Shown one piece after another: positions 39,768-55,177 of a DNA stretch of 64,000 nt. Origin of the DNA: a virus; IMG/VR virus record IMGVR_UViG_3300033153_010326, positions 32,001 through 96,000 of that record. One strand, 5' to 3'. How positions within the stretch are numbered: the stretch's first letter is position 1; every line of letters starts with the position of its first letter. A model generated the notes under the pieces. The model was not told the DNA's origin. It did not search any database and saw only the letters and a program-made list of their open reading frames with translations. Made by a program: the position numbers and the translations under genes.

Positions 39768-40325
39768 ATGAAAACCAAATTACAACCTAAACAAGCAGAT
39801 ATAATATTAGCTCATAACTATGGGATTTTTGGTTGGTATGTAAGATTAGTAACTAAAAGTTATTGGAATCATTGTCTTTTATATTTAGGTAATGGAGAAG
39901 TATTAGATATATTAGGAAAGGGAATTACCAAATTAAATTATAATAAATATTATAAAGACAAGATAGACCATAAATTTTTAAGAGTTAAAGGATTAACTGA
40001 TTACGAAAAGAGGCAAATTTGTAAACATGCTTTAAAATTTAAAGGACAAGCTTATAATATAAGTTTAGTTTTAGGATTTAAAAATAATATTAAAGCTTTT
40101 ACTTGTAGCCAGTTTATAGTTAAAATATTTGCAGATAAAGGAATTCTTTTATGTAAGGAAGCTTTAACGGTATCTCCAGCAGAATTAGATAATAGTATGT
40201 TTACTTATGATTTAGATAATCCTCCTAATAGACAAAAGAGGTTAAATAAATTAGGAGAGATTATTAATTATGAAGTAAAAAAGTATGGATTTAAGAAAGA
40301 AGAAATTGTAAATTTAATTAAATAA
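39768..40325 (+). CDS. permuted papain-like (YiiX/YebB NlpC/P60) enzyme
   Basis: ADIIL...SYWNHCLLY (His) before FTCSQF (Cys), SPAEL. Confidence 0.82.
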   Translation: MKTKLQPKQADIILAHNYGIFGWYVRLVTKSYWNHCLLYLGNGEVLDILGKGITKLNYNKYYKDKIDHKFLRVKGLTDYEKRQICKHALKFKGQAYNISLVLGFKNNIKAFTCSQFIVKIFADKGILLCKEALTVSPAELDNSMFTYDLDNPPNRQKRLNKLGEIINYEVKKYGFKKEEIVNLIK

Positions 40326-40337
40326 AAGGAGGTTTAC

Positions 40338-40661
40338 ATGTTTGGAAAAATAATTATTGCATTGTATACTTGGTATTCAAAGAGAGTTCAAGCTAAATAT
40401 CAGAAGGTTCAACAAGATACTAAAAAAGATAAAGAAGTAGAGTTTTATCAGAGTCTTCAAAAACTGTATAAGTTTGCTCAATGGTTAAATAAACAATTTG
40501 TTAATAGACAAGAAAGAAAGAGGTTTTGGAGTGGAGTTGCAAAAGGAGAAAAGCCTTTGGAAACCACAATACAACAATTAATAGATAATTATAAAAATAA
40601 ACAAGAAATAGAAAAAAAGAAGAAAGAAGTGAAAATTAATGTCCAAGAAAAAACCATTTGA
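40338..40661 (+). CDS. hypothetical protein
   Basis: AGGAGGT RBS. Confidence 0.65.
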   Translation: MFGKIIIALYTWYSKRVQAKYQKVQQDTKKDKEVEFYQSLQKLYKFAQWLNKQFVNRQERKRFWSGVAKGEKPLETTIQQLIDNYKNKQEIEKKKKEVKINVQEKTI

Positions 40662-40803
40662 TAAACAAGTATTTATGTGTTTATATTGTAATCATACTTG
40701 GGAATTGAGATGTGATAATAGGTTAGTTACAGAAGAAGAATTTAAAAATTGGATAGAAGAAGTAAAGGAACAACATAAACAAAATTGCAATAAATGAGGA
40801 ATT

Positions 40804-41184
40804 ATGTTAATTTATCATCCATCTAATAAAAATTTTAACATAGTTAAAGTTAAATATTTTGGAGAAAATTTTTATACTCAAAATGATAAAAAAGTTTCTC
40901 CCATAAATAGAACTTTTTGGTATACTATACTTCCTATTTTGGAAGGTAGGTTTAAAAATGTAAAATATATTTATATAGCTAAAGTTAATAAAAAAGAGAT
41001 ATATGATATTTCTAAAGATGATTTTAATTTTAAATTTAAATTTTCTAATATTCATAATTTGTTATTACATTTAAAAACAGAATACTTAGGAATAAAATAT
41101 CAAATTGAAACTTATGAATTAGTAGTATTATTTAAAGATATTAAACCTACAGGTAGAATAAAAAACAGAAAAAATATAATATGA
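40804..41184 (+). CDS. hypothetical protein, possible ADP-ribosyltransferase-like fold
   Basis: IYHPS...F...FWYT...YIYIAKV...IYD strand order recalls small ART-like domains; tentative. Confidence 0.4.
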   Translation: MLIYHPSNKNFNIVKVKYFGENFYTQNDKKVSPINRTFWYTILPILEGRFKNVKYIYIAKVNKKEIYDISKDDFNFKFKFSNIHNLLLHLKTEYLGIKYQIETYELVVLFKDIKPTGRIKNRKNII

Positions 41185-41927
41185 AATTAAGAAAAATAAA
41201 TAAAAGAACTTTTAGTTGGCAAGGAATTACTTATAGAATTTTTGTAATTTGTATAAATGCTTTATTTTTTAAAATAGGAGCTAAACAAGCTATGCAAAAT
41301 TATGGAGCATTAGGAGCTTCTTTAATTTGGAATAGTATCAATATGGCGTTATATTTTTTCTATCATGGGATATTTTTAAATTTATTTTCTTTAGAAGTTA
41401 AAACTAAAGGAGCTGTTATTTGGTTTACTGGATTACCTTGCTCTGGTAAAACTACTATTGCAGATGCAGTAGCAATAGAATTAAAACAATTGGGAAAAAA
41501 TATAGAAAGATTAGATGGTGATATCGTTCGTAAAGGAAAATTAAGTGATGATTTGGGATTTTCAAAAGAAGATAGAGATAAAAATATAAACAGAATTAAT
41601 TTTATCAGCAAATTATTATCAAGAAATGAAATAATTGTTTTGGCTTCTTTTGTATCTCCTTATAGAAAAACTAGAGATATAATAAGAAAAAATGTTACTA
41701 ATTTTATAGAAGTATATGTTAATTGTTCTTCTAAAGAATGTATAAGAAGAGATATTAAAGGAATGTGGAAATTAGCTAAAGAAGGAAAAATAAAAGGATT
41801 TACAGGATATGATGCTCCTTATCAATATCCTTGTACTCCTGAAATAAAAATAAAAACAGAATTAGAAACTATAGAAGAATCTACTAAAAAAGTAATAGAA
41901 TATCTTAAATATAAGAATTTAATATAA
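41181..41927 (+). CDS. cysC: adenylyl-sulfate (APS) kinase with N-terminal DUF2061-like membrane segment
   Basis: IWFTGLPCSGKTTIA, LDGDIVR, DLGFSKEDR, SFVSPY, RDIKG, FTGYDAPY. Confidence 0.95.
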   Translation: MKLRKINKRTFSWQGITYRIFVICINALFFKIGAKQAMQNYGALGASLIWNSINMALYFFYHGIFLNLFSLEVKTKGAVIWFTGLPCSGKTTIADAVAIELKQLGKNIERLDGDIVRKGKLSDDLGFSKEDRDKNINRINFISKLLSRNEIIVLASFVSPYRKTRDIIRKNVTNFIEVYVNCSSKECIRRDIKGMWKLAKEGKIKGFTGYDAPYQYPCTPEIKIKTELETIEESTKKVIEYLKYKNLI

Positions 41928-42487
41928 TGCTTATTAGTCATAAATTAAAATTAATATTTATTCATATACAAAAAACAGGAGGAGCTAGTTTTAAACAAGC
42001 TATTAGAGATATAGACCCTAAAGCTCAAGAAATAATAGATTTTCATGCAAAAATAACAAGAGAATTGATTAATAAATATCCCGATTATTATAAAGTTACT
42101 ATTGTAAGAAATTCTTATAAAATAGTGGTATCGAGGTGGAAATTTGGAGGAATTAAATATGGACATTTAACAGAAACTCAAGTTAGAGAATTTTGGAGAT
42201 TTAAAGAATGGTTATTAAATAGTTTAGGAGAAGTATTTAATCAAGTATCATATATTAAAGATGAAAAAGGAATGTTAGTTGACCAAATTATATATTATGA
42301 TAAATTAGAAGAAGGAATAAAAAAATTAAACAAAAAATTAAATATAAATATATCTATGAAAAATAAAAAAGTTCATTATTATGGTTTATATAATTATAAA
42401 GAATTTTATAATAAAGAAATAAAACAAATTGTTGAAAAGAAATGTAAAGAAGATATTAAATATTTTAATTGGAAATTCGAGGATTAA
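41927..42487 (+). CDS. PAPS-dependent sulfotransferase (Sulfotransfer_2-like)
   Basis: FIHIQKTGGAS (5'-PSB), IVRNSY..VVS (3'-PB), EDIKYFNW. Confidence 0.88.
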   Translation: MLISHKLKLIFIHIQKTGGASFKQAIRDIDPKAQEIIDFHAKITRELINKYPDYYKVTIVRNSYKIVVSRWKFGGIKYGHLTETQVREFWRFKEWLLNSLGEVFNQVSYIKDEKGMLVDQIIYYDKLEEGIKKLNKKLNINISMKNKKVHYYGLYNYKEFYNKEIKQIVEKKCKEDIKYFNWKFED

Positions 42488-42488
42488 A

Positions 42489-43127
42489 ATGAGACAAGAA
42501 GAAATATATATTATTGGTGGAGGAGCTTCTTTAAAAGGATTTGATTTTGATTTATTAAAAGATAAAGATACTATTGTTGTTAATAAAACTATATTTCATG
42601 TTAAAAATCCTACTTATTTTATAACTATGGATTATATGTTTTTAAAAAATTATAGAGAAAAAATTAAAAGAAATAAAACTGCTAAGTTTTTTGTTGGAGC
42701 TATGAATAATGCTTATTTAAAATATAAAAATGGAAAATTAACAGATACTAAACATAAAATTTCTTATGATTTAGATATGATAGATGTTCTTATTTTTTCT
42801 AAATATGATAAAGGTATTGGATTTGATTTTACTAATTTTAGGCATGGATGTAATAGCGGTTACTGTGCTCTTCAGTTAGCAATTATATTAGGATATAAAA
42901 AAATAAATTTACTAGGTATAGATTTAAATTTTACAGAAAATACCCATTTTCATGGAGGATATGGATATTCAAAAAATCATTTTAAGAAAAGATTAGCTTT
43001 TTATACTTTATATTTTAGATATGCTTTTTATGTATTACAAAATCACCCTGAAATTCAAATTTATAATTGTTCTGATATTAGTTTATTAAAAAATTATTTA
43101 CCATTTAAAAATTTAGGAGAAATCTAA
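42489..43127 (+). CDS. Maf/DUF115-like putative glycosyltransferase
   Basis: YIIGGGASL..FDF, VVN, ITMD, NSGYCALQLAIILGYKKINLLGID, HFHGGY, IYNCS. Confidence 0.7.
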   Translation: MRQEEIYIIGGGASLKGFDFDLLKDKDTIVVNKTIFHVKNPTYFITMDYMFLKNYREKIKRNKTAKFFVGAMNNAYLKYKNGKLTDTKHKISYDLDMIDVLIFSKYDKGIGFDFTNFRHGCNSGYCALQLAIILGYKKINLLGIDLNFTENTHFHGGYGYSKNHFKKRLAFYTLYFRYAFYVLQNHPEIQIYNCSDISLLKNYLPFKNLGEI

Positions 43128-43849
43128 TGAAATATTATTGTAAAGAATCTGGATGTAATAATAAGATTCATTATAATACTTTTAAATATGGACAGAAAAG
43201 ATGTAGAAAATGTGCGAATAAACAACATAGTAAGAGAATGAAAGACAAAAACAATCCTTTTTATGGTAAAAAACATACAATTAAAACTAAAAAAAGAATT
43301 AGTATAGTAAATAATGGTAAAAATAATGGTAATTATATAGATGGAAGATGCTCTAAAATTTATTATTGCAAAGAAAAAAATTGCAATAAAGAAATAACTA
43401 TTATGTCTGCTATTTATGGTAAAGGAAGATGTAAATCATGTGCTAAAAAAGGAAAATTAAATCCTATTCAAAGCGGTAAAAATAATCCTAATTTTGGGAA
43501 TGGAGATAAAATGAAAGGAAAAAATAATCCTATGTTTGGTAAAATTGCTCACCATAGTAAAAAAATCAAATATAAAAAAATTCTTATGAGGTCTTCCTGG
43601 GAAATGGCTTATGCTAAATATTTAGACAAATTAGGAATTAAATGGTTATATGAATCAAAAACTTTCGATTTAGGAGATTGTACTTATACTCCAGATTTTT
43701 ATTTACCCGAACAAAATAAATATATAGAAATTAAAGGTTGGTGGAGAAACAATGATAAAAGAAAATTCAAATTATTTATAAAAAAATATCCAAATAAAAA
43801 TATAATAGTATTAATGAAATTTGATTTACAAGCAAAGGAGATATTATGA
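43127..43849 (+). mobile_element. homing endonuclease: Zn-ribbon repeats, NUMOD3, PD-(D/E)xK domain
   Basis: NPFYGKKHT, NPMFGK, RSSWE, WLYE, TYTPDFYL..YIEIKGW. Confidence 0.85.
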
Positions 43850-44562
43850 TTTTTGATATAGTTATTCCCTCATTCAAACGCAAAGAAAAACTTATTAGAT
43901 GTTTAAACTCCATTTTTAAAGCTAAAAAAAATCTAAAAAAAGACCAAATTCAAATATATATTTATTTTGATAATAATGATAAAATAACTTACAATTATTT
44001 TACAAATAAATATAACAATATTAAATGTAATCTCATGAACAAACAATACAGAGCCTTTGGAATTTGGAATAAACATTTACAAATATTGGATTCATGTGGA
44101 ATGGTATACCTTTGTGATGATACTCAATTATATCCAGAAACTTTATATATTTTATTTGAATTATTTAATCAAATTTATAAAAACACAGATGGAATATTAA
44201 CTTTTAATCAATATAATCTAGAATCAGCTTCTAAATATGCTATGGGATTAATTGGAAAAAAGTTTATTAATAGATTTCCTAATAATCAATGTTTTTGTCC
44301 TGATTATGTCTCGTTTTATGCTGATGCAGAATTAGGAAGATTTGCGGAATCTTTAAATAAATTTTATTTTGGTAATGGAATAAAAATACATCATTTTCAT
44401 CCAGCATTTTATCCAAATGAAAAAGATTCAACTCATTTATTAGTAAGAGATGAACAACAAAAAATAGATAAAGAAGTTAATAAAAAGAGAAGAGAACGAG
44501 GATTGCTTTGGGGTAAAGATTTTAAATTAATTAGACCTACAATAGAAGGAAATATAAAATGA
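43846..44562 (+). CDS. GT2-family glycosyltransferase
   Basis: DIVIPSFKR, YLCDD, FYADAE, HHFHP. Confidence 0.8.
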   Translation: MIFDIVIPSFKRKEKLIRCLNSIFKAKKNLKKDQIQIYIYFDNNDKITYNYFTNKYNNIKCNLMNKQYRAFGIWNKHLQILDSCGMVYLCDDTQLYPETLYILFELFNQIYKNTDGILTFNQYNLESASKYAMGLIGKKFINRFPNNQCFCPDYVSFYADAELGRFAESLNKFYFGNGIKIHHFHPAFYPNEKDSTHLLVRDEQQKIDKEVNKKRRERGLLWGKDFKLIRPTIEGNIK

Positions 44563-45761
44563 AAGTAATATTTTTAGATTGGCATAGATGGACATTTCCT
44601 CCAGATAAGAATAGTTTGAAAAAACTTCTTATTAAATGCGGAGTAGAATGTAAAGATATGAAACCCGCTCCTGTAAATTCTGGTAATTCTAATTTACTTA
44701 TTAAATCAAATCATAAACCTCAAAATAATTATAGGGGATTTGATGTAAAATCTATGATAAAAGCAGGAGTATTACGAGAAACAAAATGGTATGTTAATAA
44801 TTCTAAAGTAACAAAAAAATATATGGTAGAAGTAATGGAGTATATAGATTGGGCTTTTAAAATATTTGAAGAAGAAAAGCCTAATTACATAGTAATTGAA
44901 GGAGGATTGACTCATTTTCATAGAGCAATATTAGAAGTTGCTAGAGAATTAAATATAGGTATTATTGCAATTGAAAATTCTTTTATTAAAGATAAAATAT
45001 TTATAGAATTTAATACTGGTTATGTATGTAATAGACATTCTTTTGCAAGATGTTCTAAAGATTGGATAAATACTAGAGTGTTAAATTCTTTTAAAATAAA
45101 AAAAGTAGATAATATTATACAAAGTATTTTTTCTAAAAATAATTTAAAATATCCAACAACAGGCAATTTTGATTATTCTCAATTAAAATACGATAAAACT
45201 ATTTTTGTACCATTACAAGTAGCTTTTGACCAAGTAGTAGTATACGATTCTAAATTTAATAATAAAACTTTTATAGAAGAAGTTATGAAAATTTTTACTA
45301 AGTATTTTAAGAATTGGAATATTATTTTTAAATGCCATCCTAAAGAAGAAAAAAGTGGTATATTAAGACAGACAGGGAATTGGATACAAGATAATATTTC
45401 AAATAATAATATGTATCTTATAAGAGGAGCAGAAGAATCTCCTAATACTCAAAATTTAATACAACATGCCGATTTGGTTTGGGTGAATAATTCGCAAGCA
45501 GGATTAGAAGCTTGTTTATTAGATAAGCCCGTAGTAGTTTTTGGTGATGCTTTTTATTCTAAAAAAGGCTTTACTTTAGAATATAATAAATATATTAATT
45601 GGAAAGAGATAAAATTAAACCCTGAATCTATTAAAAATATTGACCAAGTTAAACTTTGGTTTTATTATTTTTATAAGTGGCTTTATAATAAATCATTTAC
45701 TAAACAAGATGAAGAAAAAATTAAAAATATATTAAATATACAGGAGAAAGAAAATGGATAA
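44559..45761 (+). CDS. KpsC/KpsS-like capsule polysaccharide biosynthesis protein (GT-B)
   Basis: IFVPLQVAFD, FKCHPKE, VNNSQAGLEACLLDKPVVVFGDAFY. Confidence 0.88.
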   Translation: MKVIFLDWHRWTFPPDKNSLKKLLIKCGVECKDMKPAPVNSGNSNLLIKSNHKPQNNYRGFDVKSMIKAGVLRETKWYVNNSKVTKKYMVEVMEYIDWAFKIFEEEKPNYIVIEGGLTHFHRAILEVARELNIGIIAIENSFIKDKIFIEFNTGYVCNRHSFARCSKDWINTRVLNSFKIKKVDNIIQSIFSKNNLKYPTTGNFDYSQLKYDKTIFVPLQVAFDQVVVYDSKFNNKTFIEEVMKIFTKYFKNWNIIFKCHPKEEKSGILRQTGNWIQDNISNNNMYLIRGAEESPNTQNLIQHADLVWVNNSQAGLEACLLDKPVVVFGDAFYSKKGFTLEYNKYINWKEIKLNPESIKNIDQVKLWFYYFYKWLYNKSFTKQDEEKIKNILNIQEKENG

Positions 45762-46344
45762 AATAGTTTTTATTATAGGAATGAGAAGAGCAGGAACAAG
45801 TATATTGAGGTCTCTTTTAATGCAACATTCTAAAATTGAATTTATAGAATTTGAACCTCATGATTTATTATTTGCTGTTGGAACTAGACATATAAAAAGG
45901 TATAATAGTTCAAAGTATCATATAGATACTATTAATCGTTTTTTTAAAAATAACAAAAAATATTATGGAGCCAAAATAGTTTGTAATCCTTATTTATCAG
46001 CATTAGGATGGAGATTTTTAAAACGATATTTTCCACAAGCTAAATTTATTTTTATAAAAAGAGATTGGATAGATAATTATAATTCTTGGTATAAACAAGA
46101 CATAAATTCGGTTAGAGGAGTTATTCCAAAAGAAATGTATAAATATTTTTATGATAAAATTAATACTAGTTTTGAAAATTTTTATGAAAAAAATATGCTT
46201 AATGCTTGTATGATTATTTATGAAAATCTTGTTAATAATGCTGATAAAGAATTAATAAAAGTATGGGAAGTTTTAAATATTAGAATTAAAACGGGCTTTA
46301 ATAAAGAAATGAAAAAACCTTCTAATTGGAGAATAAAAACATGA
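45754..46344 (+). CDS. PAPS-dependent sulfotransferase (Sulfotransfer_1/3-like)
   Basis: FIIGMRRAGTSIL..L.QH, FPQAKFIFIKRD..D...S, IYENLV. Confidence 0.85.
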   Translation: MDKIVFIIGMRRAGTSILRSLLMQHSKIEFIEFEPHDLLFAVGTRHIKRYNSSKYHIDTINRFFKNNKKYYGAKIVCNPYLSALGWRFLKRYFPQAKFIFIKRDWIDNYNSWYKQDINSVRGVIPKEMYKYFYDKINTSFENFYEKNMLNACMIIYENLVNNADKELIKVWEVLNIRIKTGFNKEMKKPSNWRIKT

Positions 46345-47378
46345 GTAGACAGATAATTTGGATAGACCCTAAAATTATTACTAAAATTTCTCCAATTTCA
46401 GCTTCTGCTTATACTCGAAAACAAAGAATATTAAAATATAACTTAACTTTTAAGAGTGGTTATTTAAATGGAGATTGGGATAAAACTAATAATAAATTTA
46501 AACATTTACTTTGTTGGGGAGATTACAATCTTTTTAAAAATAATAAAAAATCAGTATATAATTGGAAAATTCTTTATAATAGTATAAAGAAAAAAGGTTA
46601 TAAACAAAATCCATCTAAAAGACATGTTGAAGTAGCTCTTGGAAGAAATGGGGAAATTTTATTTGTTGATGGAAGGCATAGATTATTATTAGCAATGGAA
46701 TTTAATATTTCTGAAATTCCAGTTGATATAGTATATATTCATAAAGATTATAATTTTAATAATCTTCATTTAATAAAAAACCTCATAATTCCAGAATTTT
46801 TATATAATATAATTAGCAAAAAATGGGATAAAAAAATAAAAATTTATCATAGATATTTAGTTATTCATCAAAGAGGCAATTTAGTTAAAAAATACTTACC
46901 TTTGTTATCAGGTTTAAATGTGTTAGAAATAGGATGTAATTCAGGAATGATGATGTGGTCAATTATGAAATATGCTAATTCTTTAATAGAATTAGAAAAA
47001 CAATTAAAATATTTTAATCAAAGTTATATCACTTATAAATCTTTAAAGAAATCTTCTAAGGTATTATTATTTAATGATTCTTTTAAAGATTTTATAATTA
47101 AATATCCTCATGCTTATCTTGATATAAATGCTTTATATGCTTCTTTTGTTTTATATCATATGAATAAAGAAGAAATAGATTTTCTTAAAACTAAAATACT
47201 GCCTTTATGTAAAACAGTAATTATTCCCAATCGCCAAAAAGAAAGAAAAAGCAAAATAAATCCTTATTATTTAAATAGAGATAGTAGGATTAAACAATTA
47301 TTAGAAGATTGTGGATTTAAAGTTATAATAGATACTTCTTTTCAAAAAGGATTCTCAGTTATAGTGGGGACAAAATGA
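46341..47378 (+). CDS. ParB/Srx-like domain fused to a SAM-dependent methyltransferase
   Basis: LYNSIKKKGY...FVDGRHRL...IPV; C-terminal VLEIGCNSG...VLYH. Confidence 0.78.
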   Translation: MSRQIIWIDPKIITKISPISASAYTRKQRILKYNLTFKSGYLNGDWDKTNNKFKHLLCWGDYNLFKNNKKSVYNWKILYNSIKKKGYKQNPSKRHVEVALGRNGEILFVDGRHRLLLAMEFNISEIPVDIVYIHKDYNFNNLHLIKNLIIPEFLYNIISKKWDKKIKIYHRYLVIHQRGNLVKKYLPLLSGLNVLEIGCNSGMMMWSIMKYANSLIELEKQLKYFNQSYITYKSLKKSSKVLLFNDSFKDFIIKYPHAYLDINALYASFVLYHMNKEEIDFLKTKILPLCKTVIIPNRQKERKSKINPYYLNRDSRIKQLLEDCGFKVIIDTSFQKGFSVIVGTK

Positions 47379-48388
47379 AAATTAAACTTTTTCAATGTGG
47401 TGGAGAAAACAGTATTTCAGAATATCCTTTAGGATTAGGATATTTAAAATCTAATTGTATAGCAAATATTAAAATAATTAAAAATAAAAACGATTTAAAT
47501 AATTGTGATTTTATTGGACTTTCTACTAATGCTTGGGGATTAAAAGAAGCTATATCTATTTTAAATAAAACAAATATTCCTATTATTTTAGGAGGACAAG
47601 GAGTATTATGGAAGGAAATTAAAAATTATCCTTTTAAGTATATTGTTTATGGAGATGGGGAAATAGCTCTTCAAACAATTATAAACAAGAATACTAATAA
47701 ATTATTACATTATCCAGTTCAAAATATAGATAATTTAAAATTTCCAGAAAGAGGAAAATGTAAAGAAAGAATTCCAATTTTAACTTCAAGAGGATGTCCA
47801 TTTAAATGTAATTTTTGTTCTTCTAATGCTTTTTGGGGTAATGTTCGTTATCATAGTGCTGAATATTTTATTGATGAAGTATTAGATATTTTAAATAAAT
47901 ATCCTCAAGGTAAAGTATTATGGATTTTAGATGATTTATTTATAGGTAATAAATTAAGATTTGAAGTTATTTATAAAAAATGGATGAGTTTAAATTTAAA
48001 TAAAAAATTAAAATTAAGAGGATTTGTAAGGTCTAGTTTAATAACTTCAGATAATGCAAAACAAATGAAAGAAATGGGATTTCAAAGAATTCGATTTGGG
48101 GCTGAAAGTGGTAGTAATAAAATGCTAAAAGATTTAAATAAAAGTGCTACAGTAGAACAACATCAACAGGCTATTGATATTGCAAATAAAATTAAATTAC
48201 CTATTTCAGCTTCATTCATGTATGATTTACCTGGAGAAACTTTAGAAGATAAAAAAATGACTAAAGAATTTATAGAAAAAAACAAAGGAAAGTTATTAGT
48301 AGAAGGATGGTATAAATTTAAACCTTTTCCAGGTACTAAATTTTATAATGGAGAAAATCCTTTAACTTATGATATGAGGGTACGATAA
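47375..48388 (+). CDS. cobalamin-binding radical SAM enzyme
   Basis: PLGLGYL, ILGG, GDGE, TSRGCPFKCNFC, DDLF, GAESGS, LPGET, PFPGT. Confidence 0.92.
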   Translation: MKIKLFQCGGENSISEYPLGLGYLKSNCIANIKIIKNKNDLNNCDFIGLSTNAWGLKEAISILNKTNIPIILGGQGVLWKEIKNYPFKYIVYGDGEIALQTIINKNTNKLLHYPVQNIDNLKFPERGKCKERIPILTSRGCPFKCNFCSSNAFWGNVRYHSAEYFIDEVLDILNKYPQGKVLWILDDLFIGNKLRFEVIYKKWMSLNLNKKLKLRGFVRSSLITSDNAKQMKEMGFQRIRFGAESGSNKMLKDLNKSATVEQHQQAIDIANKIKLPISASFMYDLPGETLEDKKMTKEFIEKNKGKLLVEGWYKFKPFPGTKFYNGENPLTYDMRVR

Positions 48389-48963
48389 TGAATAAACAAA
48401 ATAAAAATTTTAATAAAAAATTAAGGTCAGGAGAAAGACAAGTTCGTAATGATTTACATAAAATGCAATGGAATCAAAAATGGAGATATTGTAAAGCTTT
48501 GAATTATATTAAACAAGAAAATACCGTATTAGATATAGGTACAGGATGTGGTTCTGGAGCTTATATTCTTTCATTATTAGCAAAAAAAGTAATAGGAATA
48601 GATGATAGTGAAGAAGCTATAAAATTTGCTAAAATGAATTGGTCAACTTCCAATATAGAATTTTTTTGCCAAGATGCTTTAAATTTACAAGGTAAATACG
48701 ATATTATAACAGCTTTTGAATTAATAGAACATATTAAAGATGATATAAAATTATTTATTAAATTTAAGCAACTTAATCCTAAATATATTATTATATCAGT
48801 TCCTCATATTTCAGTACCTTTATCTAGGTCTAAATGGCATTGGAAACATTATAAACAAAAAGAAATTAATAAATTATTTAATAATATAGGATATAAAGTA
48901 ATTGTTAATGATATAATAAAATTTGGAAATTTAGCTATTTTTGCAGTAGCAGAAAGGAAATAA
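48388..48963 (+). CDS. class I SAM-dependent methyltransferase
   Basis: RY, VLDIGTGCGSG, GIDDS, FELIEH, ISVP. Confidence 0.9.
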   Translation: MNKQNKNFNKKLRSGERQVRNDLHKMQWNQKWRYCKALNYIKQENTVLDIGTGCGSGAYILSLLAKKVIGIDDSEEAIKFAKMNWSTSNIEFFCQDALNLQGKYDIITAFELIEHIKDDIKLFIKFKQLNPKYIIISVPHISVPLSRSKWHWKHYKQKEINKLFNNIGYKVIVNDIIKFGNLAIFAVAERK

Positions 48964-48965
48964 TT

Positions 48966-50255
48966 ATGAAAAAATTAGCATTAATAAAAGTTTTTTTAAA
49001 TGAATTTCAAAGAAAAACTCATTCACTTACTTTTGATTATTTAATAGCAAGTATTAATCAAGCAAAAATAGAGATAGATATAAAAATTTGTTATAGTTTA
49101 CAAGAAATTAAAGAATATAAACCCGATATAGTAGGTATTTCTACTGTTACCGAATCTTATATGATTGCTAAACAATTAGCAAAAGACATTAAAAAAGAAT
49201 TAGGAAGTATAGTAATTATAGGAGGAACTCATATAACAGCATTACCTCAAACTATGTCAAAAGATATGGATATTGCAATAATAGGAGAAGGGGAAAGAAC
49301 TATAGTAGAAATATTAAAATTGTCAGAAAAACCTCCTTGGCATTTAACTGGAATAGATTCTATTTTAGGAATAGCTTATTGGAAAAATGGTAAACTTTTT
49401 CAAACTAACCCAAGACTTTATATTCCTATGGATGAATTACCTATACCTATTCATCCAAATATTAAATATGATTTTGGAGAGGCTATAGCTATTTTAACTA
49501 CTAGAGGATGTGTTAATCGCTGTGTTCATTGTTCTGAACAAAAAATATGGAGACCTTTTAGATATTTGTCTGGCAAAAGATTAGCTGAAATTATAGATGT
49601 TCATTATAAAAGAAGTGGAATAACTGATTATGTATTTATGGATGATATTTCAGTATTTAATCTTAAACGATTAGTAGAATTAAAAGAAGAACTTATAAAA
49701 AGAAATATATTTGATAAAATTAAAATTGTAAAAATTTCTACTAATTCTGAAATTATTACTGAAGATATTGTAAAAATATTAAAAGAATTAGGATTAAGAT
49801 TAGCAGGGTTTGGTTTAGAATCCGCTTCTTCTAGAATTTTAAAAGAAATGAAAAGAGGAAGAGTAACTATAGAAGATTTTAAAAGATGTATAACTTTATT
49901 TGGAAAATATGGGATAAGGTCTGGAGCCTCTACAGTATGGGGATTTCCTGGAGAAACTTTAGAAGATATGGAAAAAAATAAAAAATTTTTGGTAGAATGG
50001 AATGGCAAATATCAATTCAAATCTTTTATGCAATATTGCTGTCAACCTTTGCCTGGTTCGGATTTGTGGGATATGATGTATGCAAAAGGGAAAGTATCTT
50101 TAGATATGGATTTTTCAACAATGAAAATTCATCCAAAAAATATAAAAGAAAATTGGTTATATATTAATGAGGATACTGTAAATAAAGAAGATTTTATAAA
50201 ATTTTTAAATCAAACCAGAAAAGAAATAAGAGAGGCTAAAAAAAATAAAAAATAA
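48966..50255 (+). CDS. cobalamin-binding radical SAM enzyme
   Basis: PDIVGIS, IGGTHIT, IGEGE, TRGCVNRCVHC, GLES, GFPGET, PLPGS. Confidence 0.92.
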   Translation: MKKLALIKVFLNEFQRKTHSLTFDYLIASINQAKIEIDIKICYSLQEIKEYKPDIVGISTVTESYMIAKQLAKDIKKELGSIVIIGGTHITALPQTMSKDMDIAIIGEGERTIVEILKLSEKPPWHLTGIDSILGIAYWKNGKLFQTNPRLYIPMDELPIPIHPNIKYDFGEAIAILTTRGCVNRCVHCSEQKIWRPFRYLSGKRLAEIIDVHYKRSGITDYVFMDDISVFNLKRLVELKEELIKRNIFDKIKIVKISTNSEIITEDIVKILKELGLRLAGFGLESASSRILKEMKRGRVTIEDFKRCITLFGKYGIRSGASTVWGFPGETLEDMEKNKKFLVEWNGKYQFKSFMQYCCQPLPGSDLWDMMYAKGKVSLDMDFSTMKIHPKNIKENWLYINEDTVNKEDFIKFLNQTRKEIREAKKNKK

Positions 50256-50266
50256 GGAGAAGATAA

Positions 50267-51415
50267 ATGAAAAAAATTGGAATAATTTCTTGTTTTGGAT
50301 ATAAAAATTGGGGAGATGATGCTCAATTATGTAATGCTATTTTAAAATTAAAAAAGAATAATTATAAGAATATTTTAGTTTTTTCAAGAGCAGGATATAT
50401 AAAAGAATTAACTAAAACTCCTATGGTTTTTTCTTCTCATATTTTATTTAAAAATTGTAAAACAAATGAACAGTATTTAAAAAAATACCAATTTTTATTA
50501 CAAAACTATAACCAACCTAATAAATTAAGTATTAATGAAAAAGTATTTATTAAAAATTTATCAAAAATTGATATATTATGGTTTTCTGGAAGTGGAGCTA
50601 TTAATACTCTTAAATTATCAAGATTATGTATTTTTTTCTTGCCTTGTATATTAGCTAAAAAATTAGGAAAAAAAGTAATTTTAACAGGACAAGGAGTAGG
50701 AAATTGTGATAATAAAGAATATCATCCTTTAATGAAAGAAGCTTTAAATTCAATAGATATAATAACAGTAAGAGATTTTGATTCAGGTATTAATCAATTA
50801 AAACAATTAGGAATTACATCGTCAATATATAAAGGAGTTGATGATGCTTTTAATTATCCTATTACTACTAATAAATTTAAATCTTTAAAAAATAAACAAG
50901 TATTAGGTATTAATATTTCTTTTCTTATAACTCCTAAATTAAAAAAGATTTTATATAATTTTGCAATAATAATGAAAAATCAAGGATACTTTCCTGTATT
51001 TAATTATTTTCAAAGAGAAGAAAAAATTGCTAAAGAATGTAGTAAAGGTAAATTTCCTGTTGTTGGATTTAATAAAGTTTCTGAAATGGCAGAATTTTAT
51101 AATTATTGTAAAATAGCTATTGGAATGAGATATCATTCTGTTATTTTTGCTTTAAGTCAAAAAGTTCCTACTTTAAATATATATTTAAATGAATATCAAG
51201 CAAATAAAATAAAAGCTATTGAAAAAGAATTAAATATTAAAATGGGAGTTAATTGTATTAAAGATACACCAACTGCTAAAGAACTAGTGGATTTAATAAC
51301 GAACATATCTAGTTTGTGTAATCAAACTAAAGAAGTATTAATTTCAGCCCATAAACAATGGACAGAAAAAACAAATTTAATATTTAATTTATTAAAAGGA
51401 AAATATGAAAAATAA
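50267..51415 (+). CDS. polysaccharide pyruvyltransferase family protein
   Basis: GYKNWGDDA, SGSG, GQGVG, ITVRD..S, DDAF, GMRYHSVIFA. Confidence 0.88.
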   Translation: MKKIGIISCFGYKNWGDDAQLCNAILKLKKNNYKNILVFSRAGYIKELTKTPMVFSSHILFKNCKTNEQYLKKYQFLLQNYNQPNKLSINEKVFIKNLSKIDILWFSGSGAINTLKLSRLCIFFLPCILAKKLGKKVILTGQGVGNCDNKEYHPLMKEALNSIDIITVRDFDSGINQLKQLGITSSIYKGVDDAFNYPITTNKFKSLKNKQVLGINISFLITPKLKKILYNFAIIMKNQGYFPVFNYFQREEKIAKECSKGKFPVVGFNKVSEMAEFYNYCKIAIGMRYHSVIFALSQKVPTLNIYLNEYQANKIKAIEKELNIKMGVNCIKDTPTAKELVDLITNISSLCNQTKEVLISAHKQWTEKTNLIFNLLKGKYEK

Positions 51416-51959
51416 TATTAAAAATATTATCAAATCTCGTCGGAGTATAAGAAAATTTAAAAATATTCCTATTGCAAAAAAAGATTTAGAAGATTTAATA
51501 GAAGCTGGAAGTTTTGCTCCTACAGGTTCAAATACCCAATGTTATAGATTTATTGTTACTACTAATAAACAAGATATTCAGACTATAAGAAAGTTAAGAG
51601 GTTATTGGTTTAAAACTTGTCAAGCTATTATAATTTGTTTTGCTGATAAAAAGAATTATCCAGTTAAAAGTAAATTACTTATTCATTTACCTTATTGGGA
51701 TTGTGGAGCATCTATTCAAAATATATTATTATTAGCGGAAGAAAAGAAAATAGGAACTTGTTGGGTATCTATGCACCCCAAATTAAAATGTATGGAATTT
51801 ATTAATAAAACTTTTAAAATTCCAAAAGATTATGAAGTGATGGGAGCAATAGCATTAGGATATTCTGATGAAATTATAAATTATAAAACTGCTACACATG
51901 GTACAAGGTTTATTAAAAGAAAACCTATTAAATATTATATATGGAAATGGAGAGAATAA
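51405..51959 (+). CDS. nitroreductase family flavoprotein
   Basis: IKSRRSIRKF, APTGSNTQ, DCGASIQNILLLA, GTCWV, IALGY. Confidence 0.92.
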   Translation: MKNNIKNIIKSRRSIRKFKNIPIAKKDLEDLIEAGSFAPTGSNTQCYRFIVTTNKQDIQTIRKLRGYWFKTCQAIIICFADKKNYPVKSKLLIHLPYWDCGASIQNILLLAEEKKIGTCWVSMHPKLKCMEFINKTFKIPKDYEVMGAIALGYSDEIINYKTATHGTRFIKRKPIKYYIWKWRE

Positions 51960-52109
51960 TATGGGAATAATAATCTGTCCTTGTGGTAAAGTAATAGAAA
52001 ATTGGCAAAAAGGAATTTATCAAATAACTCATAAAGATAAAGATGGTAAAATAATTTTTGCTCAATGTTATCATGGAACTATAGTAATTAATAAATTGGA
52101 GGAAGAAAA

Positions 52110-52733
52110 ATGATAATTATATCATATTTTACTCGTAATACTCCTTACGAAGAAGTTATGAATTTTAAACTACTTCCTAGTCTTAAAAAATGGAATCTTA
52201 AATATGATATTGAAGCTATAGAAGATAAAGGAAGTTGGCAAGCCAATACTCACCTTAAAGCTGATTTTATTAAAAGGATGTTATTAAAGCATAAACAAGC
52301 AGTAATATTTTTAGATGCTGATGCAACTATAGAAAAATTTCCTGAATTATTTTTTAGATTAAAACATGAGAATTATGATATTTCTTATCATGAATTGGAT
52401 TGGTTTAAGATGTGGAGGAAACAAGAAGGTAATTCTAAAAGAGAAGTTCTTAGTGGTACTTTATTTATAAATTATACTGAAAATAGTTTAAAATTTTTAG
52501 ATGATTGGATAGAATTAAATAAACAAAGTATTGAATGGGAACAGAGAAATATGGAGAAAGTACTTGAAAAATGGAAAGATAAACTTAAAATATATCCATT
52601 ACCTTATGCCTATATTACAGTAATGTATAGAAATAACCAATTACCTTTACATATGATAAAGAAAGAGGATATATTTATATTACATTGGCAAGTGAGTAGG
52701 TTATATCGCAATTGGCATAAAAGGAGAAAATAA
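52110..52733 (+). CDS. GT-A fold nucleotide-diphospho-sugar transferase
   Basis: ISYFT..TPY, W.ANT..K, IFLDADA (DxD), LSGTLF, EQ, LPYAY, HWQ.SR. Confidence 0.8.
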   Translation: MIIISYFTRNTPYEEVMNFKLLPSLKKWNLKYDIEAIEDKGSWQANTHLKADFIKRMLLKHKQAVIFLDADATIEKFPELFFRLKHENYDISYHELDWFKMWRKQEGNSKREVLSGTLFINYTENSLKFLDDWIELNKQSIEWEQRNMEKVLEKWKDKLKIYPLPYAYITVMYRNNQLPLHMIKKEDIFILHWQVSRLYRNWHKRRK

Positions 52734-52942
52734 TGATAAAAACAAAAAAACAAAAATATTTAGGTAAACTAATTTTTTCAGCAACAGGATTAAGAAAGAT
52801 GGCTAATGCTTTACAAAAAAAGAATAAAACTAAAGGAGATGTTAAAGTTAAATGTTATATAGAAAAATTTAAATATAAGTATGATGGAGAAATTTATAAA
52901 ACTATAGGTATTGATATAAAAGGAAAAAAACATGATAAATAA
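52733..52942 (+). CDS. hypothetical protein
   Basis: AGGAG RBS. Confidence 0.55.
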   Translation: MIKTKKQKYLGKLIFSATGLRKMANALQKKNKTKGDVKVKCYIEKFKYKYDGEIYKTIGIDIKGKKHDK

Positions 52943-53651
52943 ACCAACTCAATTAATAATTCTTGGTGGTGGGTCTTCTGTTGTTGAAGGTATTAATAAA
53001 GAATTATGGCAGAAACTTAAAGGTAGATTTGTCATTGGTTTGAATCATTCGTACGATTTCTATCCTGACCCTACTTTTATGACTTGTTTAGATAATCATT
53101 TTTTCACCCATAAAAATAAAGACGGTGGTGATGTTTGGGAAGATTTAAAAAAACAACCTTTAATAATTACCAAGCAACATAAACCTAAAGATATGTTACC
53201 TAATATGATTGTTGTTAAAGGTTGTTCTTGTTTTAATAGGACTTTATTTGAAGGAGCATATAAAAGTAGTCTTACAGGGATTTATACCTTATCTTTAGCT
53301 ATTCATTTATTAGATGTAGGAGAAATATTTCTTTTAGGATATGATTTTTGTGCTAATGGAAAAAATAAAGGAAAAGATATTACTCATTGGTATCAAGGAC
53401 AGTTACAGCATAAAGGCATTGGTAAAATTAATTATTATCATACTAGGAATCGAGCAAATAACGATTTTAAACCTTTTTTAAAAGAAACAAAATGTAAGAT
53501 ATATAACGTGTCAATGATAAGTAAAATTCCAGAAAATATTTTTGAAAAAATAAGTTATAATAAATTTTTCAGTTTATTAGATAAAAACCAATATAATCAA
53601 GATTTATTGAGGACTGAAATTAAAAATAAATTAAAAGAGATAACAAAATGA
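52932..53651 (+). CDS. second Maf/DUF115-like putative glycosyltransferase
   Basis: IILGGGSS, IGLN, CLD, LTG...LAI...IFLLGYD, THWY, IYNVS. Confidence 0.68.
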   Translation: MINKPTQLIILGGGSSVVEGINKELWQKLKGRFVIGLNHSYDFYPDPTFMTCLDNHFFTHKNKDGGDVWEDLKKQPLIITKQHKPKDMLPNMIVVKGCSCFNRTLFEGAYKSSLTGIYTLSLAIHLLDVGEIFLLGYDFCANGKNKGKDITHWYQGQLQHKGIGKINYYHTRNRANNDFKPFLKETKCKIYNVSMISKIPENIFEKISYNKFFSLLDKNQYNQDLLRTEIKNKLKEITK

Positions 53652-54259
53652 ATAAACTTAGTTTTAATATACCCAAAAAATTATTAATTAATTTATATAG
53701 AACCCAAAAATTATCTGCATTTAAAATTGCTAAGAAATTAAGATGTAGTACTACTACTATAATTAAGAGATTAAAAAAATTTAATATTAAAATAAGAACT
53801 TCTGCTGAATATATGATAGAAAATAAATATTGTAAAACAGGAGAAAAACATCATAATTGGAAACCCGAAAAACACAAAATTTATTATTGTAAAGAAAAAA
53901 ACTGTAATAATAAAATCACTTATCAAACTTGGAAATATGGTTCAGGAAGATGTGGTTCTTGTGCTCAACATTATTTTCGTAAGATTCATCCAAATTATCA
54001 AAAAAAAAATCATCCTATGTTAGGAAAAAAACATACTAAAAAAAGTAAAGAAAAAATGAGAAAATCTTTATCAAAGCATCATATATATTTAAAAGAAAAT
54101 CATGATAAAATTATAAAATTATCAAAGTCAAAACATTCTTTATTACATGTAAAAGCTTATACTTATATATACCAAAAATATGGAAAAAAAGGTATTAATA
54201 ATTATTTAAAATGGTTTGATAAAAATTATGATTTATTTGAAGGCAAAAAACATGACTAA
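53648..54259 (+). mobile_element. NUMOD3/Zn-ribbon homing-endonuclease-like protein with HTH and His-rich (HNH-like) C-terminus
   Basis: YYCKEKNCNNKI...RCGSCA, HPMLGKKHT..SKEKMR, KHHI...H..LH. Confidence 0.7.
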
Positions 54260-54689
54260 AATAATTATTATGAGTATAGCTTTATTTATCGCTTTTTATC
54301 TTATAATGTTTATTGATTTAATCATAGGAGGACTTAAAAAAATGGAAAAGAAAATTTATTCTTTAGTAATTGGGAGGTTTCAATGTTTACCTCCTCACGA
54401 TGGACATTTAGGATTAATTAATACTTTATTGAAAGAAGATAAAAATGTTTGTATAGCTTTAAGAGATACAGATACAAATGAAAAAAACCCCTATACTTTT
54501 GAACAAAGACATAGAGCTTTTATGAAGATTTATAGTAAAAAAGTAGCTGAAGGCAGAATTAAAATTATAAAAATTCCTGATATTGAAGATGTAGTTTATG
54601 GGAGAAAGGTTGGGTGGGGAATAAGAGAAATAAGATTAAATTCTAAAATAGAAGATATAAGTGGTACAAAAATAAGAGAAAAATCATGA
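54252..54689 (+). CDS. HxGH nucleotidyltransferase, candidate minimal ATP sulfurylase
   Basis: IGRFQ..PHDGH, NPY, IPDI..V.YGR.VG, ISGTKIR; hydrophobic leader from 54252 or second RBS/start at 54342. Confidence 0.75.
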   Translation: MTKIIIMSIALFIAFYLIMFIDLIIGGLKKMEKKIYSLVIGRFQCLPPHDGHLGLINTLLKEDKNVCIALRDTDTNEKNPYTFEQRHRAFMKIYSKKVAEGRIKIIKIPDIEDVVYGRKVGWGIREIRLNSKIEDISGTKIREKS

Positions 54690-55177
54690 AAAGAGGGGAT
54701 ATAATACTATTTTATTACAAATATGACCCTATTGCTTGGCTTATACGGCTCACCACGCATAGTAAATGGAATCATATAGGGATAATGCTACATGGTACTG
54801 TAATCCTCGATTTAAGGGCTACTAAGCGAAGAACTGCCCATATAAGAAGGTTTTTACATAGTCCTATTTATAAGCTAAAATTACTAAGGATTAAAAATCT
54901 AACTCATGAAGCTCAAGAACGTATAATTGCAAATATAGATGCTCAACCAAAAGTTAGAATCTATTATAAATTATTGTGGAAATTTTTATTAATGTTTTTT
55001 GGAATTCCTTCTAATATATGTAATAACTGTGCTGAAGTAATTGCGAAACCTTTAAGAGAAGAAGGGTTTGATATATGTCCAGGTAAAGATGTGAGATTAA
55101 TAACTCCTGAAGATTTTAATAAAAGCGATTTAGTTGAGGATGTTAGTGGAGAATTAACTTATAAAAGGAGTTTATAA
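54686..55177 (+). CDS. second permuted papain-like (YiiX/YebB) enzyme
   Basis: RGDIIL...IRLTTHSKWNHIG (His) before NCAE (Cys), ITPEDF. Confidence 0.8.
   Translation: MKRGDIILFYYKYDPIAWLIRLTTHSKWNHIGIMLHGTVILDLRATKRRTAHIRRFLHSPIYKLKLLRIKNLTHEAQERIIANIDAQPKVRIYYKLLWKFLLMFFGIPSNICNNCAEVIAKPLREEGFDICPGKDVRLITPEDFNKSDLVEDVSGELTYKRSL

What the first reader, a model, noticed from the sequence alone, without database searches (positions are those of the whole stretch)
41181..54689. Possible self-contained PAPS supply with a minimal ATP sulfurylase
Seen: CysC (41181), two sulfotransferases (41927, 45754) and a ~115-aa HxGH nucleotidyltransferase (54342-54689) ending ISGTKIR, but no Sat or CysDN. Established: APS kinase needs APS; Sat-type ATP sulfurylases belong to the HxGH nucleotidyltransferase superfamily and carry a C-terminal SGTxxR motif. 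Inference: the small protein is a stripped-down ATP sulfurylase completing sulfate to APS to PAPS. Both it and CysC have hydrophobic N-terminal segments, hinting at membrane co-localisation.
Basis: inference. Interest (0 to 1): 0.72.

Follow-up and report, generated by a model that had tools for sequence, protein, structure and literature searches.

The report
Candidate mini ATP sulfurylase in phage
A complete 104-kb phage carries an APS kinase, two sulfotransferases and a 115-residue enzyme whose relatives are repeatedly fused to APS kinases and replace the usual sulfate-activating enzymes, so it is probably an undescribed, very small ATP sulfurylase, though no assay has tested this.

Summary
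The window is part of a complete 104,368-bp phage. It encodes a genuine APS kinase with a membrane-type N-terminal module (41181-41927), two sulfotransferases (41927, 45754) and a 115-aa HxGH nucleotidyltransferase (54342-54689). No Sat, CysD or NadV was found in the genome.

The small protein is not a trimmed Sat. By sequence and fold its nearest relatives are NadM-type NMN adenylyltransferases. It lacks their middle segment and C-terminal helix.

The functional idea is nevertheless strongly supported by comparative genomics:
- The family has 742 clusters, and its members are fused to true APS kinases in both domain orders, in many separate lineages.
- An APS-kinase-type gene is fused or directly adjacent in 50 of 59 genome loci, and fused, adjacent or nearby in 70 of 80 viral loci.
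- Neighbouring genes are enriched in sulfotransferases and CysQ-like phosphatases.
- In marine group II archaea, 22 of 22 genomes with the APS kinase-NT fusion lack CysD and Sat. All 8 genomes with a CysNC-size APS-kinase frame have CysD and lack the NT. All 30 keep a separate NadM.

Best reading (about 0.6): a non-orthologous minimal ATP sulfurylase that completes sulfate to APS to PAPS. No biochemistry exists, and I found no paper describing it. First-stage notes on this same phage record raise the same idea.

The parts
41181..41399 (+). N-terminal membrane-type module of CysC, two hydrophobic helices, DUF2061-like
   Evidence: Translation. phmmer matches residues 2-73 to the C-terminal extension of the NT-family protein P0047 (E 1.5e-11). 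P0070 is NT plus Pfam DUF2061 (E 5e-14), and P0047 gives a weak DUF2061 match. Pfam itself does not detect the domain on the window segment.
41400..41927 (+). APS kinase domain (CysC), converting APS to PAPS
   Evidence: PF01583 E 5.6e-53; TIGR00455 196 bits, above the 138.7 cut-off. P-loop, DGDxxR, DLGFSxxDR, SPY and lid motifs are all present. It is the only APS-kinase-type ORF in the phage.
41927..42487 (+). Sulfotransferase 1 (Sulfotransfer_2-like), start overlapping the cysC stop
   Evidence: PF03567 E 8.9e-4, below the cut-off. Motifs resembling the 5'-PSB and 3'-PB PAPS-binding motifs are visible in the translation.
45754..46344 (+). Sulfotransferase 2 (Sulfotransfer_3)
   Evidence: PF13469 E 2e-15, 58 bits against a cut-off of 27; translation.
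54342..54689 (+). 115-aa HxGH nucleotidyltransferase, candidate minimal ATP sulfurylase (sulfate + ATP to APS + PPi)
   Evidence: Ribosome-binding site and ATG. Family of 742 clusters. Fusions to genuine APS kinases. Kinase adjacency in genomes and viral contigs. Complementarity with CysD/CysNC. AF2 model with pLDDT 94.
54252..54341 (+). In-frame hydrophobic stretch upstream of the NT start; either a possible N-terminal anchor or non-coding spacer
   Evidence: The stretch is strongly hydrophobic (Kyte-Doolittle 2.59 over 19 aa), but it lies before the strong ribosome-binding site and is not conserved among homologues.
39768..55845 (+). Surrounding glycan-building and glycan-decorating island, the presumed user of PAPS
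   Evidence: Pfam hits include GT2 proteins, Capsule_synth, MptE-like, a pyruvyl transferase, two radical SAM proteins, SAM methyltransferases and two homing-endonuclease-like genes.

Best explanation
The 115-aa protein belongs to an undescribed family of very small HxGH adenylyltransferases that branched from NadM-type NMNATs. This family lost the part that holds the large acceptor, and I propose it uses sulfate as acceptor: ATP + sulfate gives APS + PPi.

In this phage it would supply APS to the membrane-tethered APS kinase (41181). That kinase makes PAPS for the two sulfotransferases, which decorate a glycan built by the 16-kb island. The phage would then be independent of host sulfate activation.

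Shown here:
- the genes and their family assignments;
- the family-wide physical linkage of this NT to APS kinases;
- its complementarity with CysDN in marine group II archaea.

Inferred: the catalytic activity, the direction of the reaction, the sulfated product, and whether NT and CysC touch each other.
For: 1. Fusions. Among the best 150 cluster representatives, a local phmmer search with the window's CysC finds full-length APS kinase domains fused on either side of the NT (E 1e-48 to 1e-20). Nine of the 10 fusions tested exceed the TIGR00455 equivalog-domain cut-off. On a tree the fusions are scattered: 21 fusion rows need 20 changes. The window NT lies in a 98-supported clade that holds 20 of the 21.

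2. Adjacency. In 50 of 59 genome loci with a full-length NT, an APS-kinase-type gene is fused or lies within 300 bp on the same strand. In 70 of 80 viral loci such a gene is fused, adjacent or nearby. The short kinases keep the P-loop, DGDxxR, [FY]SxxxR and SP motifs and lack only the lid.

3. Neighbours. In 12 diverse loci the 138 neighbouring ORFs include APS_kinase in 11, Sulfotransfer_3 in 6, Sulfotransfer_1 in 4, Inositol_P (CysQ-like) in 3 and TauE in 3. One family member is fused to a protein with a weak DHHA1 match (E 7.4e-5, below cut-off).

4. Complementarity. In Poseidoniales, 22 of 22 genomes with the APS kinase-NT fusion have no CysD or Sat. All 8 genomes whose APS kinase lies in a roughly 640-aa frame (CysNC size; the CysN part was not tested) have CysD beside it and no full-length NT. 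Fisher p = 1.7e-7, not corrected for relatedness. All 30 genomes keep a separate NadM-type NMNAT. Of 14 other carrier genomes, 13 lack Sat and 12 lack CysD.

5. The phage has one APS kinase, two sulfotransferases and no other APS source.

6. Catalytic motifs are invariant: G11, R12, G21, H22 and R112, plus the family-specific G87 and R88; H19 is nearly invariant. The fold is a reduced nucleotidyltransferase core. It also superposes on Thermus ATP sulfurylase over all 115 residues (Z 8.1).
Against: - No enzymatic evidence exists for any member of the family.
- Sequence and structure place it next to NMNATs, not Sat.
- In the window, NT and cysC are 12.4 kb apart. The NT's immediate neighbours are a homing-endonuclease-like gene, a papain-like amidase and a GT2.
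- One Acidobacteriota MAG has CysD and CysN directly beside an NT-APS kinase fusion. One Omnitrophota MAG has a CysD-like gene elsewhere in its genome. The NT is therefore not always the only candidate activator.
- The window NT's nearest tree neighbours are stand-alone proteins or fusions to short, lid-less kinases whose substrate is unproven.
- In SAR11 the pair lies among C1 and osmolyte catabolism genes, not sulfation genes.
- The ATP sulfurylase equilibrium is very unfavourable. A minimal enzyme would depend on pyrophosphatase and on tight coupling to the kinase.
Confidence: 0.6

Rival explanations
1. It is a minimal NadM-type NMN adenylyltransferase that rebuilds NAD+ for the phage, either as salvage or as counter-defence in the manner of the NARP pathways. 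Its position in the sulfation island would then be incidental.
For: The nearest named families and solved structures are NadM-type NMNATs. Large phages encode NadM-Nudix enzymes. A NadR-like kinase plus NMNAT enzyme defines NARP3 (PMC13464706). In Xylella phage Bacata a kinase-NT fusion sits next to a NADAR gene.
Against: Matches cover only residues 7-80. About 25 internal residues and the C-terminal helix of NMNATs are missing. Scores are far below the NMNAT model cut-offs: 20-31 bits against 127-449. The fused kinases are true APS kinases, not ribosylnicotinamide kinases. All 30 MGII genomes tested keep a separate NadM. The phage has no NadV.
Confidence: 0.12
2. It is a small cytidylyl- or adenylyltransferase that activates a phosphorylated building block, such as glycerol-3-phosphate, a sugar phosphate or phosphocholine, for the glycan island.
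For: The gene lies inside a glycan island, with a GT2 gene two genes downstream. TagD-type enzymes are of similar size, and structural matches to cytidylyltransferases reach Z 7.4-8.1. Some relatives are fused to sugar-type O-methyltransferases (P0012, P0021).
Against: Profile similarity to TagD is weak (E 0.007 against 5e-15 for NadM). The RTxGISTT signature is absent. This reading offers no explanation for the family-wide fusion to APS kinase or for the complementarity with CysDN.
Confidence: 0.1
3. It works on the APS/PAPS node without being the APS synthase. It could be a non-catalytic or regulatory partner of APS kinase, or an enzyme that uses APS or another small anion (selenate, phosphate, sulfite-derived APS in the reverse direction).
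For: The Acidobacteriota MAG has CysDN beside an NT-APS kinase fusion. From my own knowledge, not tested here, inactive sulfurylase-like or kinase-like domains are known in some PAPS synthases. SAR11 has AprAB, an alternative APS source (10.64898/2026.04.03.716430).
Against: The catalytic residues R12 and H22 and the SxTxxR arginine (R112) are invariant across the family, and H19 is nearly invariant, which argues for catalysis. Carriers mostly lack any other sulfurylase.
Confidence: 0.13

Closest known systems
Sat-type ATP sulfurylase (PF01747) and Sat-CysC PAPS synthases
   Same: Proposed to catalyse the same reaction. Same HUP/HxxH nucleotidyltransferase superfamily. Fused to APS kinase in either order. 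Has an SGTxxR C-terminal motif. Its core superposes on the Thermus enzyme (Z 8.1 over 111 residues).
   Different: No PF01747 match, and hhalign probability is 4.5%. It has no PUA-like domain. It is about 115 aa, against roughly 350-400 aa or more for Sat. The motif context is GRxQPxHxGH rather than QxRNPxHxxH. The loop is YGRxVG(Y/W) rather than GRDHAG. It descends from the NadM branch.
CysD/CysN GTP-coupled ATP sulfurylase and CysNC fusions
   Same: Occupies the same pathway position. In Poseidoniales, APS kinase is paired either with CysD (in a CysNC-size frame) or with this NT, never both.
   Different: Unrelated fold (PAPS-reductase-like plus GTPase). The NT shows no sign of GTP coupling.
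NadM / archaeal NMN adenylyltransferase (TIGR01527, PDB 1f9a, 1ej2, 2qjo)
   Same: Closest in sequence and fold. Shares the GRFQPxHxGH, NPxTxxER and SGTxxR motifs. Profile E 5e-15 and Z 9.9.
   Different: Lacks about 25 internal residues after the DI strand and the C-terminal helix. Scores are far below the family cut-offs. It carries a family-specific invariant G87-R88. It co-exists with a normal NadM in the same genomes.
phrog_10255, annotated 'kinase' or 'adenylylsulfate kinase', in Xylella, Stenotrophomonas and Xanthomonas phages
   Same: The C-terminal half is this NT family (33-37% identity). The N-terminal half is an APS-kinase-like P-loop kinase.
   Different: It is a single fused polypeptide with a short, lid-less kinase. 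It lies in replication or early regions, in one case next to NADAR, and not in a sulfation island.

Membership tests
Sat-type ATP sulfurylase (PF01747) | Significant match to the ATP-sulfurylase catalytic-domain profile | tested here: not met
   There is no PF01747 hit on the protein or anywhere in the phage. No ATP sulfurylase is among the 60 best PDB sequence matches shown (132 matched at E <= 10). hhalign against a cyanobacterial Sat gives 4.5% probability.
Sat-type ATP sulfurylase (PF01747) | QxRNPxHxxH active-site motif and GRDHAG loop | tested here: inconclusive
   HxGH is present, but in the NadM-type context GRFQCLPPHDGH. The family has an invariant YGRxVG(Y/W) after the last strand. 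This resembles GRDHAG only loosely, and the structural equivalence was not checked at residue level.
Sat-type ATP sulfurylase (PF01747) | N-terminal PUA-like domain | tested here: not met
   The protein is 115 aa and consists of a single reduced Rossmann-like core.
Sat-type ATP sulfurylase (PF01747) | Catalyses ATP + sulfate to APS + PPi | not testable with these tools
   This needs an enzyme assay or genetic complementation.
NadM-type NMN adenylyltransferase | GxFxPxHxGH and SxTxxR motifs | tested here: met
   GRFQCLPPHDGH (with a 2-residue insertion) and ISGTKIR.
NadM-type NMN adenylyltransferase | Full-length match above the curated family cut-offs | tested here: not met
   The best NCBIfam scores are 20-31 bits against cut-offs of 127-449, and they cover residues 7-97 only.
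NadM-type NMN adenylyltransferase | Middle segment and C-terminal helix that hold NMN | tested here: not met
   The profile alignment to MJ0541 breaks at residue 80 and resumes about 25 residues later in the NMNAT. The NMNAT C-terminal residues, about 33 of them, have no counterpart. The role of that segment in NMN binding is from my own knowledge.
NadM-type NMN adenylyltransferase | Serves as the genome's NMNAT | tested here: not met
   All 22 MGII genomes carrying the fusion also have a separate NadM-type gene. This could not be tested for the phage's host.
PAPS-synthesis system (sulfurylase + APS kinase + PAPS users) | Genuine APS kinase in the same element | tested here: met
   TIGR00455 scores 196 bits, above the 138.7 cut-off.
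PAPS-synthesis system (sulfurylase + APS kinase + PAPS users) | Physical or genetic coupling of the sulfurylase candidate to APS kinase | tested here: met
   At family level, fusions occur in both orders and kinase genes are adjacent. In the window the two genes are 12.4 kb apart on the same strand of one island.
PAPS-synthesis system (sulfurylase + APS kinase + PAPS users) | PAPS-consuming sulfotransferases present | tested here: met
   Sulfotransfer_3 scores above its cut-off, and there is a weaker Sulfotransfer_2-like protein.
Glycerol-3-phosphate cytidylyltransferase (TagD-like) | RTxGISTT signature and closest profile match to GCT | tested here: not met
   The C-terminal motif is ISGTKIR. 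PDB GCT entries score E 1e-4 to 7e-3, against 5e-15 for NMNAT.

The most novel reading that the evidence does not exclude
This family would be a third, independently recruited class of ATP sulfurylase and the smallest known, at about 110-120 aa. Together with a normal or lid-less APS kinase it would form a minimal PAPS synthase. The pair is widespread in phages and in abundant lineages that lack Sat and CysDN, including SAR11, marine group II archaea, Peribacteria and Omnitrophota. It would explain where PAPS comes from for the sulfotransferases in SAR11's hypervariable surface-glycan region. In SAR11 it might also run in reverse beside AprAB.
Probability: 0.5. Interest if true: 0.85.

Novelty: new variant of a known kind. 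Interest (0 to 1): 0.78.

Why it matters
Only two enzyme types are currently recognised for sulfate activation, Sat and CysDN.

- **A third sulfate-activating enzyme.** A 115-residue type would change how sulfur metabolism is annotated. Viral cysC genes are at present read as assimilatory auxiliary genes (PMC10914622).
- **PAPS in organisms without the usual enzymes.** It would explain how organisms judged unable to activate sulfate still make PAPS for sulfated glycans. Pelagibacter is reported to lack assimilatory sulfate reduction yet to carry sulfotransferases (10.64898/2026.04.03.716430).
- **Phage autonomy.** It would show that a phage can carry a complete sulfation supply line for a surface glycan.
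- **Practical use.** It could provide a very small enzyme for PAPS regeneration or sulfate-coupled assays.

The claim can be tested directly with standard assays.

Tried and rejected
- **Complex prediction.** Complex prediction with the CysC kinase domain plus the NT gave no verdict (score 0.00). It counts neither for nor against binding.
- **The search for related loci.** Alignment A1 had no stretch conserved enough to search with. The single protein found no close viral relative. The narrower alignment A2 worked.
- **Fold searches.** Foldseek against the PDB gave only weak matches (best E 2e-3), all over the first 80 or so residues. The VIA wide search shows the general nucleotidyltransferase fold and cannot separate NMNAT, PPAT, cytidylyltransferase and Sat.
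- **Host.** Not identified. The DNA polymerase is only 24-26% identical to those of T4-like cyanophages. A SAR11 host is a guess from GC content alone.
- **Second kinase beside the NT.** Rejected. The downstream gene (54686-55177) resembles a permuted papain-like amidase, and only weakly. The phage's only APS-kinase-type ORF is cysC.
- **Obligatory N-terminal membrane anchor on the NT.** Not supported by homologues.
- **Literature.** Searches for any description of this family as a sulfurylase found nothing relevant. The library does not cover most subscription journals.
- **Protein atlas.** It returned only viral clusters named 'cytidylyltransferase-like' or 'hypothetical'.

Full report
**What is in the window**

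The window is bases 32001-96000 of a complete viral record of 104,368 bp with direct terminal repeats. GC content is about 25%. The record has a B-family DNA polymerase, a primase-helicase and virion proteins. Between the replication genes and the oppositely oriented structural genes lies a plus-strand island, about 39.8-55.8 kb. It encodes glycosyltransferases, a KpsS/C-like capsule protein, an MptE-like protein, a pyruvyl transferase, two radical SAM enzymes, SAM methyltransferases and two homing-endonuclease-like genes.

Within this island every element of the finding is present:
- **CysC (41181-41927).** It scores 196 bits on the TIGR00455 equivalog-domain model, above the 138.7 cut-off. 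It has a 73-residue hydrophobic N-terminal module.
- **Two sulfotransferases.** The one at 45754 is a clear Sulfotransfer_3. The one at 41927 is a weak Sulfotransfer_2-like protein with recognisable PAPS-binding-type motifs.
- **A 115-aa HxGH protein (54342-54689).** It follows an AGGAGGA ribosome-binding site.

The whole phage has no Sat, no CysD-type protein and no NadV.

**What the small protein is by descent**

It is not a reduced Sat. It has no PF01747 match, and profile-profile comparison with a Sat gives 4.5% probability, aligning only the HxxH motif.

Its nearest relatives by sequence, profile and fold are archaeal and NadM-type NMN adenylyltransferases. A profile search against PDB sequences gives E 5e-15 to MJ0541, and the fold searches agree. 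The match covers only residues 7-80 plus the final SGTxxR helix. About 25 internal residues and the C-terminal helix of NMNATs are missing. Scores are far below the NMNAT family cut-offs.

The AF2 model is confident (pLDDT 94). It shows a three-strand reduced core followed by a long ordered loop that carries a family-specific invariant Gly87-Arg88. The wide structural search shows that this core superposes about equally on NMNAT, PPAT, cytidylyltransferases and ATP sulfurylase (Thermus enzyme, Z 8.1 over 111 residues). Fold therefore cannot decide function.

**The family and its partners**

An exhaustive profile-free search found 742 clusters at E <= 1e-3. Many are stand-alone proteins of 110-125 aa. 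Many others carry the domain at the N- or C-terminus of proteins of 250-330 aa.

- **Fusions to genuine APS kinases.** A local phmmer search with the window's CysC showed that the partner in about 18 of the top 150 clusters is a full-length APS kinase (E 1e-48 to 1e-20), in both domain orders. About 25 more have a shorter APS-kinase-like domain.
- **Kinase identity.** Nine of the 10 fusions tested exceed the TIGR00455 cut-off.
- **Other partners.** These include a protein with a weak DHHA1 match (E 7.4e-5, below cut-off), sugar-type methyltransferases and HNH endonucleases. They also include DUF2061, the same kind of membrane module that sits on the window's CysC.
- **Independent events.** On a low-resolution tree the family separates from NadM. 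The window protein lies in a 98-supported clade holding 20 of the 21 genuine-kinase fusions. The fusions are scattered, which implies many independent events.

**Genomic context elsewhere**

A scan of one genome per species returned 534 relatives. Of the 59 loci with a full-length domain, 50 have an APS-kinase-type gene fused or within 300 bp on the same strand. These loci come from Omnitrophota, Planctomycetota, Acidobacteriota, Flavobacteriaceae, marine group II and halophilic archaea, Peribacteria and about 45 SAR11 species. Lower-ranked hits that match only residues 7-80 are ordinary NadM genes without a kinase.

In viral contigs, 70 of 80 loci have such a kinase fused, adjacent or nearby. 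Most of these phage and SAR11 kinases are short, about 140 aa. An alignment shows that they keep the P-loop, DGDxxR, [FY]SxxxR and SP motifs of APS kinase and lack only the lid.

A Pfam census of 138 neighbouring ORFs in 12 diverse loci gave APS_kinase in 11, Sulfotransfer_3 in 6, Sulfotransfer_1 in 4, CysQ-like Inositol_P in 3 and TauE in 3, plus many glycosyltransferases.

**Phyletic complementarity**

In a sample of 101 Poseidoniales genomes, 22 have an APS kinase in a frame of about 300 aa. In each, a full-length NT domain lies directly downstream in the same frame. None of the 22 has CysD or Sat.

Eight other genomes have the APS kinase in a roughly 640-aa frame, the size of a CysNC fusion (the CysN part was not tested). 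All eight have CysD beside it, and none has the full-length NT. All 30 keep a separate NadM-type gene. Fisher's p is 1.7e-7, uncorrected for relatedness.

Among 14 other carriers, 13 lack Sat and 12 lack CysD. Five SAR11 carriers lack Sat and have no strong CysD match. This pattern is what non-orthologous displacement of the sulfate-activating step would produce. It also argues against the NT being the cell's NMNAT.

**Counter-evidence**

- One Acidobacteriota MAG has CysD and CysN directly beside an NT-APS kinase fusion.
- One Omnitrophota MAG has a CysD-like gene elsewhere in its genome.
- In SAR11 the pair lies among C1 and osmolyte catabolism genes rather than sulfation genes.
- In Xylella phage Bacata the fusion sits next to NADAR.
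- The window's NT is 12.4 kb from cysC, and its nearest tree neighbours are stand-alone or short-kinase forms.
- No member of the family has been assayed. My literature searches found no description of it.

**Membrane idea**

The CysC N-terminal module is real. It is homologous to the C-terminal extension of the NT-family protein P0047, and P0070 is NT plus DUF2061. The same tether therefore recurs on both enzymes.

For the window's NT, the hydrophobic stretch lies upstream of the ribosome-binding site and ATG, and homologues lack it. Its membrane location is open.

**Verdict**

The most likely mechanism is a NadM-derived minimal adenylyltransferase that uses sulfate as acceptor. It would feed the phage's membrane-bound APS kinase and so supply PAPS to two sulfotransferases acting on a phage-built glycan. 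I give this a confidence of about 0.6.

The rival readings are a minimal NMNAT, a glycan-precursor nucleotidyltransferase, or another role at the APS/PAPS node. Simple assays can separate them. If the main reading is confirmed, this is a third kind of sulfate-activating enzyme, widespread in phages and in very abundant marine microbes.

Noticed in passing
L006-L056 (for example L048:9549-10330): Most SAR11 (Pelagibacteraceae) species representatives carry a 136-aa lid-less APS-kinase-like gene overlapping a 124-aa NT-family gene. Five such genomes tested lack Sat and have no strong CysD match. The pair lies among homocysteine methyltransferase, DAO-GCV_T, creatinase-like, HalD-like and enoyl-CoA hydratase genes.
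   Followed up: partly
L001:3581-4321 (Xylella phage Bacata); L002:3590-4321 (Stenotrophomonas phage DLP6): phrog_10255, annotated 'kinase' or 'adenylylsulfate kinase', is in fact a fusion of a short APS-kinase-like domain with this NT family. In Bacata it follows a NADAR-domain gene.
   Followed up: partly
Poseidoniales genomes G012-G119: Within marine group II archaea, APS kinase occurs in two mutually exclusive forms. One is an APS kinase-NT fusion of about 300 aa without CysD. The other is a roughly 640-aa, CysNC-size frame with CysD adjacent.
   Followed up: yes
L054:5117-8259: In an Acidobacteriota MAG, cysN and cysD are divergently adjacent to an NT-APS kinase fusion, next to ABC-type polysaccharide export genes. 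This is the one clear case where the NT co-occurs with a canonical sulfurylase.
   Followed up: partly
L024:7434-11884 and L027:834-3847: In a Planctomycetota MAG, the APS kinase-NT fusion is flanked by two sulfatases. In a Flavobacteriaceae MAG the gene order is APS kinase, NT, a pyruvate-kinase barrel-domain protein, then a sulfotransferase.
   Followed up: no
P0058 (432 aa, metagenomic): An NT-family domain is fused to a protein with a weak DHHA1 match (E 7.4e-5, below cut-off). If it is a DHH/DHHA1 phosphoesterase it might hydrolyse pAp, the by-product of sulfotransfer. That role is my inference, not a test result.
   Followed up: no
window 43127-43849 and 53648-54259: Two homing-endonuclease-like genes sit inside the glycan island. 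One has NUMOD3 plus an endonuclease I-like domain. The other has an HTH plus NUMOD3 and lies directly upstream of the NT. Two relatives of the NT in other phages (P0005, P0017) have an HNH domain fused upstream.
   Followed up: no
window 39768-40325 and 54686-55177: Two NlpC/P60 or permuted-papain (C92)-like proteins lie within the island: one at its upstream end, the other overlapping the NT's stop codon. Both matches are weak.
   Followed up: no
window 41181-41399; P0070; P0047: A DUF2061-type two-helix membrane module is attached to APS kinase in this phage and to NT-family proteins elsewhere. This suggests a shared, unexplained membrane association of PAPS synthesis.
   Followed up: partly
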